From contig CAVRAY010000001.1 of the NCBI GenBank assembly GCA_963719225.1, forward strand, positions 384,001 to 448,000: a stretch of DNA of 64,000 bases, written 5' to 3'. Positions 61,519 through 64,000 of the stretch are shown here, piece after piece. The DNA is from Thermoanaerobaculia bacterium (GTDB lineage: Bacteria; Acidobacteriota; Thermoanaerobaculia; UBA5066). A model generated the notes under the pieces. The model did not search any database. It was not told the origin of the DNA and saw only the letters and a list, made by a program, of their open reading frames with translations. A program made the position numbers and the translations under genes. Every line of letters starts with the position of its first letter. The stretch's first letter is position 1.

Positions 61519-61929
61519 ATGAGCGTCTTCATGAGCGGGAGACTGACTTCCCCCACGTCCACCGAGCTCGTCCACGGCCCGTCCGGAGCCGTTCTCGAGA
61601 CCACGGCTCCGAGGGACAACGGCGGCGACGGGAGCCGCTTCTCGCCTACGGACCTCTGCACCGCCTCGGCCGCCTCGTGCGCCGCGACGACCGTGAGCCT
61701 CTACGCGACGCGCAACGGAATTCCGCTGACCTCGATCGGGTTCGAGATCGAGAAGCACATGACCGCCGAGCCCCCGCGGCGCATCGCCAGGCTCGTGGCG
61801 CGCTTTCGCGTTTCGTCCCCGTGCGGCGACGAGGACTTCCAGAAGCTCGTCCAGGTCGGCAAGGCTTGTCCCGTCTTCCGCTCGCTGCACCCCGACGTCC
61901 TCATCGAGGACGTCTGGGAGCGGGGTTGA
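61519..61929 (+). CDS. OsmC family protein
   Basis: APRDNGGDG.FSPTDL...ASC and ACPV.RSLHP. Confidence 0.88.
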   Translation: MSVFMSGRLTSPTSTELVHGPSGAVLETTAPRDNGGDGSRFSPTDLCTASAASCAATTVSLYATRNGIPLTSIGFEIEKHMTAEPPRRIARLVARFRVSSPCGDEDFQKLVQVGKACPVFRSLHPDVLIEDVWERG

Positions 61930-61958: not shown

Positions 61959-62933
61959 TCAGGAGACGTTGGAGAAAGAGCCCGTCTCTCCCAGGGGAAA
62001 CCGCTCGGCCTCGATCTCGTAGCCAGCGGCCTGCCACGCGTCGAGCCCCCCTTCCAGCGGACGGACGAGCGTGAACCCGCGGTCCATGAGGAGGCGTGCC
62101 ACACGGGCCGCCGACGCTTCATTCGGTCACGTGCAGTAGAGGACGATTTCCCGATCCGTCGGCAGGTGCGAGATCTTCTCGTCCAGCTCGGCGACGTCGG
62201 CGACGATCGCCCCCGGGATTCGCCGCGGGTCGCGAGCGCGCGCGCTGCCGGACCGCACGTCGACGATCACCGGAGCCTCGCCGTCGTCCATGAGCCGGCG
62301 CAGATCGGTCGCGCGAATGCGCGCCATGCGCAGGACCTTGTAAAACCGCCTCCGCTGCATCCACTTCGCCGCGATGTAGAGGAGGAGCGCGAGGCCCAGG
62401 AGGACGAGAGCGCTTCCACCGAGCCCCGAGAGAAACGAAAGAGCCCGCTCGACGGCGCCATGGAAGAGGGCGCCGAGCGCCAGAGCGCCGCCTGCCCAGA
62501 GCACCGTGCCTCCCGCCGTGAACAGGAGGAACCGCGAAAGCGGCGCCTTCGCGGCGCCCGCGAGAGGAGGCGCGACGGTGGAATAGCCGGGGATGAACTT
62601 CGCGACGAGAAGGGACGCGAGGCCGTACGTGTCGAAGAGGCCCTCGGTCTGGCGCACGCAGGAATCCGGAGAGAGAGAAACCTTGCAGAGAGTCTTGAGG
62701 ATCTTCTGTCCGTAGCGGCGTCCGAGGAGGTACCAGACCGTGTCGGCCGCGACCGTCGCCACGAGGGCGGCGGCGAGGAGCTTTCCGAACTGCAGCCTGC
62801 CGTCCGCCGCCAGCGCTCCCGCCACGACGAGCGTCGGGACAGCGGGAACCGGGATGCCGAGCTGCTCGACGAGGACGTTCAGGAAGACGAACCCGACGCC
62901 ATGCTCGAGGATGAGGGCCGTCAGCTCGTTCAC
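61959..62933 (-). CDS. DedA (VTT) + rhodanese fusion with in-frame UGA, probable selenoprotein (CTU motif)
   Basis: DedA motifs (EQLGIPVPA, AKFIPG). The rhodanese continues past TGA 62127-62129 as PNEASAARVA...PLEGGLDAW to a stop at 61959. Confidence 0.8.
62093..62112 (-). promoter_or_regulatory. candidate bacterial SECIS hairpin
   Basis: GGCG-GCC-CGUGU-GGC-A-CGCC starting 14 nt after the UGA; G in the second loop position. Confidence 0.55.
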
Positions 62934-62934
62934 G

Positions 62935-63495
62935 TCAGCTCACGCCCGTCGACGAGGAGGAGACGGACGCCGGATCGACGCCGAGGCGCGCGAGGGCGCG
63001 CTCCCAGAGTCCCGTCACGTCGTGCGTGAAGACGAGCGCTGGGTCCCAGGGCAGGACGAGCCAGGTTCCTTCCTCCATCTCGCTCTCGAGCTGGTCCGCC
63101 GCCCAGCCCGAATACCCGAGGACGAGGAGACCCGGCGTGCCGGACGCCGGCGGCGCGGCGAAAAGCCTGGGAAGAATCTCCGCGGCGACCGAGACGCGCA
63201 ACCCGGGAGCCATCTCGACGGATTCGACGCCGGGCATCTCGTCGGTGAAGAGCGCGACGAGGCCGTTCGTGAAGATCGGGCCGCCGACGCGAAGCGGCGT
63301 CTCGGGATGGACACTCGTGTCCAGAGGCGGAGCGAGGAGCGAGACCGCCGGCTCGCCGAGGAACCGGTTTACGACCCAGCCCAGGGCGCCTTCGCGCGTG
63401 TGGTGGCCCATGACGACGACCGTCTTCTGGAAGTTCGGATCGAGCATGACGGGCGCGGCGAGAAGCAGATAGGGCGTCGTGAGGGACTCGACCAC
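62935..63495 (-). CDS. YqgE/AlgH family protein
   Basis: MLDPNFQKTVV, GALGWVVNR, VGGP and GYSGWAADQLESE. Confidence 0.9.
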   Translation of the reverse strand: MVESLTTPYLLLAAPVMLDPNFQKTVVVMGHHTREGALGWVVNRFLGEPAVSLLAPPLDTSVHPETPLRVGGPIFTNGLVALFTDEMPGVESVEMAPGLRVSVAAEILPRLFAAPPASGTPGLLVLGYSGWAADQLESEMEEGTWLVLPWDPALVFTHDVTGLWERALARLGVDPASVSSSSTGVS

Positions 63496-63538: not shown

Positions 63539-64000
63539 TCAGGTCGCGAACGCCTGCCAGGCCGCACGCGCGACCCGGGCGATGGCCTCCTCGCGGGACC
63601 CCGCATTCCGGCCGCCTCGCGTGAAGACGACGATGGCGAGATGGGTCCCATCGGGAAGCCTCACGATCCCCGCGTCGTTCGCGCAGCGCCCGACGGTGCC
63701 GGTCTTGTCGAGGACCTCCGTTCCTTTCGGCACGCCCGCGCGCAGGCGGCGGTCGCCCGTCGCGCAGCGGCGCATCGCATCGAGGATGCGGTCCGTCGAG
63801 GGGCGCGAAAGCAGGAGCGAGCCCGGACGCGCTCGCGGCGCTCCTCGCCCGGCGGGCCGGATCTCGACTTCCTCGTCGAGACGGAGAGTGCCTTTCTCGG
63901 CTGCGCCGAAAACGGCGATCGCGACCGGGAGCTTGAAGACGCTTGCCATCTGGAAGCGTCCCTCCCCGCGGTGCGACAGGCGCCTGCCGGATTCGACGTG
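63539..64000 (-). pseudogene. class A beta-lactamase-like gene (5' end beyond the window) lacking the central region
   Basis: RFQMASVFK (SxxK), DKTG and NDAGIV are present, but SDN and the omega loop are absent. Confidence 0.6.

What the first reader, a model, noticed from the sequence alone, without database searches (positions are those of the whole stretch)
61959..62933. DedA-rhodanese fusion with UGA at the CxC position and a SECIS-like hairpin: probable selenoprotein
Seen: the ORF track stops at IVLYCT, but after TGA (62127-62129) the frame continues for 55 codons as PNEASAARVARLLMDRGFTLVRPLEGGLDAW..., completing the rhodanese fold. A hairpin GGCG-GCC[CGUGU]GGC-A-CGCC begins 14 nt downstream. 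Known: homologs typically read YC(S/T)CPNE, and bacterial SECIS elements lie just 3' of the UGA with a G early in the loop. Inference: a CxU membrane-anchored sulfur/selenium transferase that standard gene callers would truncate.
Basis: partly seen in the sequence, partly recalled or inferred. Interest (0 to 1): 0.75.

Follow-up and report, generated by a model that had tools for sequence, protein, structure and literature searches.

The report
Selenocysteine-recoded DedA-rhodanese membrane protein
A membrane-protein gene carries an internal TGA codon, kept in dozens of related bacteria together with a conserved RNA hairpin, that is very likely read as selenocysteine, so databases list a cut-off version of a protein predicted to hand sulfur or selenium between a membrane domain and an enzyme domain.

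Summary
Observation confirmed. The minus-strand gene 62933-61959 encodes DedA(VTT)+rhodanese with TGA at codon 269 (YCT-U-PNE) and 55 more codons. The genome has selA, selB, selD and tRNA-Sec. All 45 full-length matches among 60 relatives carry one TGA. Full-length homologues have Cys there (80 of 82). In a phylum sample, 26 of 26 TGA genomes have selA, against 3 of 15 Cys genomes. The hairpin is not unusually stable, but its core is kept in 59 of 60 TGA genes and 0 of 18 Cys genes, and it holds the three least variable synonymous codons of 78 scored. Recoding: about 97%. Function is inferred only. A second Cys pair (C83/C92) in the DedA part, plus loss of two flippase residues, suggests a cytoplasmic-face thiol/selenol relay; no operon supports a substrate. 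The CxU rhodanese selenoprotein and the Cys-form fusion are each known. The Sec fusion was not found in the reviews searched, but this scan reported it before on other DNA (look-alikes in 13 genomes). Verdict: new variant of a known kind, moderate interest.

The parts
61959..62933 (-). Full CDS: DedA(VTT)-rhodanese fusion, 324 aa when TGA269 is read as Sec; GTG start, TGA stop at 61961-61959
   Evidence: AlphaFold2 model of the read-through protein pLDDT 93.2, pTM 0.86
62469..62849 (-). DedA/VTT domain core (residues 29-155); the membrane part as a whole is residues 1-196 (62346-62933)
   Evidence: PF09335 54.2 bits, cut-off 33.9; models
62658..62687 (-). C83-x8-C92 cysteine pair in the helical hairpin between TM1 and re-entrant helix 2; absent from the genome's stand-alone DedA paralogue
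   Evidence: C83 in 75 of 82 and C92 in 74 of 82 full-length representatives; paralogue alignment
62025..62312 (-). Rhodanese-like domain (residues 208-303), spanning the TGA
   Evidence: PF00581 50.3 bits, cut-off 22.2; NF041203 84.9 bits, cut-off 115; fold matches Z 16.9
62127..62135 (-). C267-T268-U269 motif; TGA codon at 62129-62127
   Evidence: TGA in 60, TGC/TGT in 18 and TCC in 1 of 79 loci
62093..62112 (-). Predicted bacterial SECIS hairpin; conserved core 62108-62098, loop 62105-62101
62935..63495 (-). Upstream neighbour, YqgE/AlgH family; its stop is 1 nt before the GTG start; conserved only within the genus
   Evidence: PF02622; seen in 21 of 79 loci, all same genus
61519..61929 (+). 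Convergent downstream neighbour, OsmC-like protein without an in-frame TGA; conserved only within the genus
   Evidence: PF02566; 16 of 79 loci

Best explanation
The gene encodes a DedA-rhodanese fusion whose internal UGA is very likely recoded as selenocysteine through a downstream hairpin, giving a membrane protein predicted to use its C267-x-U269 motif and a second cysteine pair (C83/C92) as a thiol/selenol relay for a sulfur or selenium species at the inner membrane. Shown by sequence and comparison: the frame, the Cys/TGA pairing, the Sec machinery, the conserved hairpin core and the four conserved thiol positions. Inferred step 1 (about 0.97): SelB binds the GCC[CGUGU]GGC stem-loop 21 nt after the UGA and delivers Sec-tRNA. 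Inferred step 2 (about 0.75): both motifs face the cytoplasm, going by the positive-inside rule. Inferred step 3 (about 0.5): U269, as the more reactive nucleophile, picks up or reduces a sulfane-sulfur or selenium group, C267 resolves it, and C83/C92 exchange with the motif, coupling the chemistry to passage through or gating of the DedA domain. This would be analogous to, but not homologous with, the YeeE/YeeD transporter plus sulfur-carrier pair. The confidence figure is for all three steps together.
For: Recoding: selA 443 bits, selB 296-322 bits, selD 335 bits with its own TGA and tRNA-Sec(TCA). 45 of 45 full-length matches in 60 relatives have one TGA, and it was checked at codon 269 in 33 of them. 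Cys sits at that column in 80 of 82 full-length representatives. selA is present in 62 of 63 TGA genomes tested and 3 of 15 Cys genomes; the one TGA genome without selA has a 62-bit tRNA-Sec. The SECIS core occurs in 59 of 60 TGA loci and 0 of 18 Cys loci; codons 276-278 have the three lowest synonymous entropies of 78 scored; Arg277 is CGT in 46 of 60 against 5.9% CGT at other Arg sites. C at +20 goes with G at the synonymous +32 in 21 of 21 loci against 6 of 39. The region after the TGA is conserved as protein: 26% non-synonymous differences against 42% upstream. Relay: all four thiol positions are kept together in 70 of 82 representatives; the stand-alone DedA paralogue lacks C83/C92 and keeps the Asp and second Arg that the fusion has lost. 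The segments 71-110 and 188-210 are basic (6 and 8 K/R), while 156-172 has 1. pTM 0.86 for the two-domain model.
Against: No experiment shows Se incorporation or any activity. Hairpin energy is ordinary for this GC content. The lower stem is imperfect: 13 of 60 loci extend the 3-bp core by only 1-2 pairs. The core nucleotides also encode conserved residues, and Cys-form genes differ in those residues, so 0 of 18 is partly a protein-level difference. Kin are not independent in any count. The neighbourhood is not conserved beyond genus level and shows no recurring sulfur or selenium genes. Covariation between the domains was too noisy to read. Residue 272 is acidic (E/D in 80 of 82), unlike the basic loop of thiosulfate sulfurtransferases (recalled), which argues against simple thiosulfate chemistry. 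No atomic distances between C83/C92 and C267/U269 were available.
Confidence: 0.5

Rival explanations
1. Sec is inserted, but the four thiol/selenol residues form a binding site for a soft metal or metalloid (Hg, As, Cu, Zn and the like), and the protein acts in metal sensing or export rather than sulfur transfer.
For: Four conserved thiol positions and an acidic residue 272. The 2026 review links several predicted transporter selenoproteins to heavy-metal or metalloid resistance (PMC13188914, passage). DedA proteins have been tied to selenite uptake and indium extrusion (passages in PMC8679861 and PMC10470534).
Against: No metal-resistance operon is conserved around the gene. Among 83 neighbour ORFs scanned there were only scattered hints: one HlyD/CusB-type cluster in 10 loci without TGA, and two P-type ATPase-like fragments.
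Confidence: 0.2
2. Sec is inserted, but the DedA part is still a lipid (undecaprenyl phosphate or phospholipid) flippase and the CxU rhodanese is a redox switch that regulates it.
For: The best DedA profile hits are UptA and DedA models. Todor et al. place rhodanese fusions in the COG0586 putative UndP-flippase subfamily (PMC10127716, section 6). E23 and a basic residue 112 are partly kept.
Against: It scores 47 bits against a UptA cut-off of 250. The Asp51 and Arg136 equivalents are replaced: column 32 shows no acidic residue among its six commonest, and column 118 is S/A/G. The genome has a canonical DedA paralogue. In P. aeruginosa, deleting the fusion PA1209 gave no growth or envelope phenotype, though neither did the other single deletions in those assays (PMC12893004, section 6).
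Confidence: 0.17
3. Sec is inserted and the protein is an ordinary rhodanese (thiosulfate:cyanide sulfurtransferase) that the DedA part merely anchors to the membrane.
For: Clear rhodanese fold: Z 15-17 to single-domain rhodaneses including GlpE. NCBI names the Cys form 'DedA family protein/thiosulfate sulfurtransferase GlpE'.
Against: The loop is two residues longer than in canonical rhodaneses and carries CxU-P-N-E. The model gives no reason for the conserved C83/C92 pair. GlpE profile 22.9 bits against a cut-off of 102.
Confidence: 0.1
4. The TGA is a true stop (truncated gene or pseudogene) or a sequencing error, or it is read as another residue.
For: TGA is the commonest stop in this genome (922 of 1347 long ORFs), so most transcripts may terminate there when selenium is scarce. 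Databases hold the 268-aa form.
Against: The same TGA sits at the same codon in 60 distinct loci across the phylum, at 35-88% identity. The downstream frame is 42-85 codons long in all 60 and is conserved as protein. TGA tracks selA. TGA is an ordinary stop in the genome, so a general reassignment is excluded.
Confidence: 0.03

Closest known systems
Rhodanese-like selenoprotein form 3 (NCBIfam NF041203 rhodanese_LYCAU; 'COG0607 form 2' in the 2022 review), CxU motif
   Same: Best NCBIfam hit for this protein and matched by 103 of 103 aligned members; same CxU motif (PMC13188914 Table 1; PMC9312934). Stand-alone CxU rhodaneses in three related genomes carry the same hairpin core.
   Different: The model is a 126-position stand-alone domain. 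This protein scores 84.9 bits (domain alone 87.3) against a cut-off of 115 and is fused to a DedA membrane domain with an extra C-x8-C pair.
DedA family protein/thiosulfate sulfurtransferase GlpE (Cys-form DedA-rhodanese fusion, e.g. P. aeruginosa PA1209)
   Same: Same architecture PF09335+PF00581. Full-length Cys homologues reach 53-60% identity and carry C-x8-C and CxC. The fusion is noted in PMC10127716 and PMC12893004 as of unclear function.
   Different: Here the second Cys of CxC is TGA with a SECIS. Sec and Cys forms are interleaved on the tree, with at least 6-7 switches, and a single Sec clade is rejected (p-AU 1.6e-8). Whether PA1209 itself has the CxC motif was not checked.
COG0586 DedA/UptA undecaprenyl-phosphate flippases
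   Same: VTT/DedA domain with two proline-broken re-entrant segments.
   Different: The Asp51 and Arg136 equivalents are missing and Arg130 is mostly Lys; far below UptA cut-offs.
YeeE/YeeD (TsuA/TsuB) thiosulfate uptake pair; TsoB rhodanese/DsbD fusion-like selenoprotein
   Same: Functional analogy only: a membrane protein coupled to a small sulfur-handling domain. YeeE family and TsoB are listed as selenoproteins (PMC13188914). The YeeE-YeeD paper PMC11073785 was seen as a search listing only; the cysteine-relay detail is recalled.
   Different: No homology: Pfam gave only VTT and Rhodanese at E <= 0.001. TsoB has a UxxxxU motif.

Membership tests
Bacterial selenoprotein (UGA-Sec) | In-frame UGA with a conserved coding frame on both sides | tested here: met
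Bacterial selenoprotein (UGA-Sec) | Homologues with Cys at the UGA position | tested here: met
   80 of 82 full-length representatives; 18 of 19 non-TGA loci are TGC/TGT
Bacterial selenoprotein (UGA-Sec) | selA, selB, selC and selD in the genome | tested here: met
Bacterial selenoprotein (UGA-Sec) | bSECIS model: 3-9 nt loop, 4-16 bp upper stem, G in the first two loop positions, 16-37 nt spacing, MFE <= -7.5 (PMC13188914 Fig. 2 legend) | tested here: met
   5-nt loop CGUGU, 7 bp with a 1-nt bulge, 21 nt spacing, -10.4 kcal/mol; checked by hand and with an own scan, not with bSECISearch
Bacterial selenoprotein (UGA-Sec) | Selenium shown in the protein | not testable with these tools
   needs 75Se labelling or MS
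NF041203 rhodanese_LYCAU (form 3) | CxU motif in a rhodanese domain | tested here: met
   C267-T-U269
NF041203 rhodanese_LYCAU (form 3) | Score at or above the curated cut-off of 115 bits | tested here: not met
   84.9 bits whole protein, 87.3 domain alone
NF041203 rhodanese_LYCAU (form 3) | Stand-alone protein of about 126 residues | tested here: not met
   324-aa fusion
DedA/VTT superfamily | PF09335 above gathering score | tested here: met
   54.2 bits against 33.9
COG0586 UndP flippases (UptA/YghB type) | Acidic pair (YghB E39/D51) and basic pair (R130/R136) at the re-entrant tips (PMC10127716) | tested here: not met
   E23 and K112 present; D51 equivalent is V32 and R136 equivalent is S118, mapped through the genome's canonical DedA paralogue
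Rhodanese superfamily | PF00581 and the rhodanese fold | tested here: met
   50.3 bits against 22.2; Z 16.9, rmsd 1.8 over 100 residues to 3gk5
Catalytic rhodanese (GlpE type) | Catalytic Cys as first residue of a six-residue loop after the strand (recalled) | tested here: inconclusive
   Strand ends at 266 in the model. Alignments put the canonical Cys on C267 with a two-residue insertion (Alr3790 and 1yt8; own paralogue) or on 269 without a gap (6mxv).
Catalytic rhodanese (GlpE type) | Sulfurtransferase activity | not testable with these tools
   needs an enzyme assay
YeeE/YedE thiosulfate transporter | PF04143 domain | tested here: not met
   only PF09335 and PF00581 at E <= 0.001

The most novel reading that the evidence does not exclude
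A DedA subfamily has been repurposed from lipid flipping into a single-chain chalcogen importer: the membrane domain, re-equipped with a C-x8-C pair, passes selenite or a sulfane-sulfur species to a fused CxU rhodanese. That would make it a candidate for the dedicated bacterial selenium uptake system that reviews say has not been identified, with its own Sec codon tying its synthesis to selenium supply.
Probability: 0.12. Interest if true: 0.85.

Novelty: new variant of a known kind. Interest (0 to 1): 0.42.

Why it matters
It corrects a systematic mis-annotation: 83 of the top 120 database relatives are cut at the TGA. It adds a membrane-bound architecture to the CxU rhodanese selenoproteins, widespread in Acidobacteriota. 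Sec marks residue 269 as redox- or metal-active, which gives a first handle on DedA-rhodanese fusions, whose link to DedA function the literature calls unclear. If the relay is real, it offers a testable candidate for sulfur or selenium uptake. The increment is limited, since the CxU selenoprotein domain is catalogued and this scan has already reported the fusion from other genomes.

Tried and rejected
Hairpin stability as evidence: rejected, z-scores are ordinary. A single fixed 6-bp structure across all loci: only 68% of cells pair because two registers exist, bulged and unbulged; the three core pairs never vary, so they give no covariation evidence, and slid controls reach a similar covariation score. 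Conserved operon: none beyond the genus (crude ORF caller, mostly 1.5 kb flanks, 83 of 314 called ORFs scanned). Domain-domain complex prediction on a Cys homologue: no answer, score 0.00, not evidence either way. MI-APC on 155 sequences (Neff 129): top pairs dominated by edge noise; S88-A275 and C83-C92 appear but may be phylogenetic. Fold search of the DedA part alone: no match at E <= 0.001 and best Z 5.4, so no solved template was found. Sequencing runs: best share 0.25, contigs of relatives only; contig depth peaks over 62064-62151 and no variant at the TGA was among the rows shown, but 147 rows were hidden and contigs cannot show expression. Small shares were not used to name a habitat. 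Linking the C. metallidurans selenite dedA mutant (Ledgham 2005) to this fusion: the paper was not held and no paper gave the locus; that species has a Cys-form fusion on its large plasmid record and other DedA genes, so the link is open. XdfA and Rhodanobacter YqaA are described as 200-250 aa DedA proteins, not this fusion. One origin of Sec: rejected on the tree (53 of 181 rows, near-duplicates dropped, quick LG+G4 tree, long-branch warning, no root, so gain and loss cannot be told apart).

Full report
1. Observation. On the minus strand a GTG at 62933 opens a frame that table 11 ends after 268 codons at IVLYCT. The stop is TGA 62129-62127. Read as U, the frame runs 55 more codons to TGA 61961-61959, giving 324 aa. 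Pfam finds VTT/DedA at 29-155 and Rhodanese at 208-303, the latter spanning the TGA. The organism is inferred to be a Thermoanaerobaculia (Acidobacteriota) member from named records at 86-88% identity.

2. Sec machinery. The genome (97% complete, 6% contaminated) has selA, selB and selD above curated cut-offs, selD with its own in-frame TGA, and a tRNA-Sec with anticodon TCA. A simple genome-wide scan for coding-like read-through plus a bSECIS-like hairpin kept 11 of 131 candidate TGAs. This gene ranked sixth, among typical selenoprotein motifs: peroxiredoxin TxxU, thioredoxin-like UxxC, formate dehydrogenase UHxP and OsmC-like UxxT, named from their motifs. Several of the 11 are ordinary overlapping stops, and the scan missed selD. 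TGA is otherwise the main stop codon (922 of 1347 long ORFs), so this is site-specific recoding, not a code change.

3. Conservation of the codon. Of 60 related genomes, 45 have a full-length match and all 45 carry one TGA; 5 have split matches with a TGA in the C-terminal piece; 10 gave no such match with this query. The TGA was confirmed at codon 269 in 33 of the 45. In 250 genomes drawn from the phylum, 41 matched at E <= 1e-45: 26 have TGA and 15 have TGC/TGT, all read from DNA. selA was found in 26 of 26 TGA genomes and 3 of 15 Cys genomes. Over all 63 TGA genomes tested (63 of 67 known) it was found in 62; the exception, a 480-contig assembly, has a 62-bit tRNA-Sec, while the 12 selA-less Cys genomes score at most 51 bits. 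Kin are not independent. Among the top 120 database proteins, 83 are 268 aa and end at the TGA position, 36 are full length and 1 is partial. Among 150 representatives at 50% clustering, 82 passed the full-length filter, with Cys at column 269 in 80, and 26 end at [YF]Cx. After the TGA, codons 270-308 differ non-synonymously in 26% of comparisons against 42% upstream, and the frame is 42-85 codons long in all 60 TGA loci.

4. The SECIS. In 79 non-redundant loci (60 TGA, 18 Cys, 1 TCC; one duplicate and one contig-edge locus dropped) the core GCCCG[T/G]G[T/C]GGC at +21 occurs in 59 of 60 TGA genes and 0 of 18 Cys genes. Codons 276 (GCC in 60 of 60), 278 and 277 have the three lowest synonymous entropies of 78 degenerate positions scored. 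Arg277 is CGT or CGG and never CGC, whereas CGC makes up 49% of other Arg codons in these genes. Chance of the core given the residues and genome codon usage is about 0.04 per gene. The lower stem takes two registers: when +20 is C, the synonymous +32 is G in 21 of 21, against 6 of 39 otherwise. The single exception has the core GCC-AGUCU-GGC, the same as the hairpin behind this genome's formate dehydrogenase UGA. Stand-alone CxU rhodaneses in three relatives use the same core. The hairpin meets all four published bSECIS constraints (PMC13188914, Fig. 2 legend). Limits: the three core pairs are invariant and so give no covariation, and Cys-form genes differ in the encoded residues too.

5. Anatomy and mechanism. 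The AlphaFold2 model of the read-through protein (C for U) is confident across both domains (pLDDT 93.2, pTM 0.86). The C-terminal part matches rhodaneses at Z up to 16.9; the DedA part has no solved template. The strand ends at residue 266, and most alignments put the canonical rhodanese cysteine on C267 with two extra loop residues, though one aligns it on 269; U269 is therefore not clearly the canonical catalytic site. The family keeps a second pair, C83-x8-C92, with all four positions intact in 70 of 82 representatives. The genome's stand-alone DedA lacks this pair and has the Asp and second Arg that define putative UndP flippases (PMC10127716, section 6), which the fusion has lost. Charge distribution suggests that C83/C92 and the rhodanese both face the cytoplasm (inference, using the two-re-entrant-loop topology in bioRxiv 2020.12.18.423352, passages). 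I therefore commit to a thiol/selenol relay that couples chalcogen chemistry to the DedA domain (about 0.5), ahead of metal binding (0.2), regulated flippase (0.17), plain anchored rhodanese (0.1) and no recoding (0.03). Nothing here identifies a substrate. Neighbouring genes are conserved only within the genus (YqgE/AlgH upstream in 21 loci, OsmC-like downstream in 16) and are unrelated elsewhere.

6. Evolution. On a tree built from columns before the motif, Sec and Cys forms interleave: 7 changes among 53 rows (6 forced by starred branches), and one Sec clade is rejected (p-AU 1.6e-8). A 181-row FastTree gave 23 changes against 53 for shuffles, counting truncated proteins as Sec. Without a root, gain and loss cannot be separated. 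Cys forms also occur in Betaproteobacteria.

7. What is known. The CxU rhodanese selenoprotein is catalogued as form 3/NF041203 (PMC13188914, passages and part 1 of 3 of section 7; PMC9312934, passages), but this protein is below the model's cut-off and is a fusion. The Cys-form fusion is known and unexplained (PMC10127716, passages, section 6 and a supplement search; PMC12893004, passages and section 6). The words DedA and VTT do not occur in the main text of either review, nor DedA or rhodanese in that of BSepDB (PMC13326102, passages). Its supplement was cut, so the family table was not seen, and the database itself could hold these genes under form 3. Searches for a report of the Sec fusion listed none by title or abstract; the library lacks most subscription papers, and Haft and Tolstoy 2025 and Ledgham 2005 were not held. 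PMC8679861 and PMC10470534 were seen as passages, PMC11073785 as a listing only. This scan has reported the same gene type before: look-alike stretches in 13 windows of 13 genomes, 8 shown; these are unchecked notes and not support. One row in the counts, alignments and trees comes from G037, which is marked unpublished; no conclusion depends on it.

8. Verdict. A real and almost certainly recoded selenoprotein gene; a new variant (membrane fusion) of a known selenoprotein kind, already seen elsewhere in this scan. Function is inferred. Interest 0.42.

Noticed in passing
G000:C1:736134 (-), 116472 (+), 208487 (-), 2228558 (+), 2923112 (-); selD at C1:3641398-3642363 (-): Further likely selenoprotein genes in this genome, named from motifs: formate dehydrogenase UHxP, peroxiredoxin TxxU, thioredoxin-like UxxC, OsmC-like UxxT, a second Prx-like UxxC, and SelD. 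Several hairpins close with GCC/GGC like the one studied here.
   Followed up: partly
L102:247-1077 (-), L103:1423-1830 (+), L104:1498-1998 (-): Stand-alone CxU rhodaneses in G038, G057 and G044 with the same SECIS core; NF041203 109-112 bits, just under the cut-off of 115. G000 has no such stand-alone copy.
   Followed up: partly
L105:6001-6975: Cupriavidus metallidurans large plasmid record carries the Cys form (CACP motif plus C-x8-C); whether it is the dedA of the selenite-resistance mutant is unknown.
   Followed up: partly
P0167: A 2327-aa protein with 16 stretches matching the rhodanese part and no [YF]C motif; not examined.
   Followed up: no
P0064, P0075, P0089: Close homologues in which the motif reads YCSMC, a CxxC variant of CxC/CxU.
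   Followed up: no
G000:C2:222382-222743 and C2:609793-610153: Two tmRNA genes with slightly different tag peptides on contig C2; may reflect the 6% contamination estimate or a duplication.
   Followed up: no
window 63539-64000 (-): Partial ORF that looks like a class A beta-lactamase-like serine hydrolase from its SxxK and KTG motifs (recalled motifs; not scanned); upstream of yqgE in 16 same-genus loci.
   Followed up: no
L098 (G218 second copy): A paralogue with Ser (TCC) at position 269 and a degenerate C83/C92 pair; its genome also has a Cys copy.
   Followed up: no
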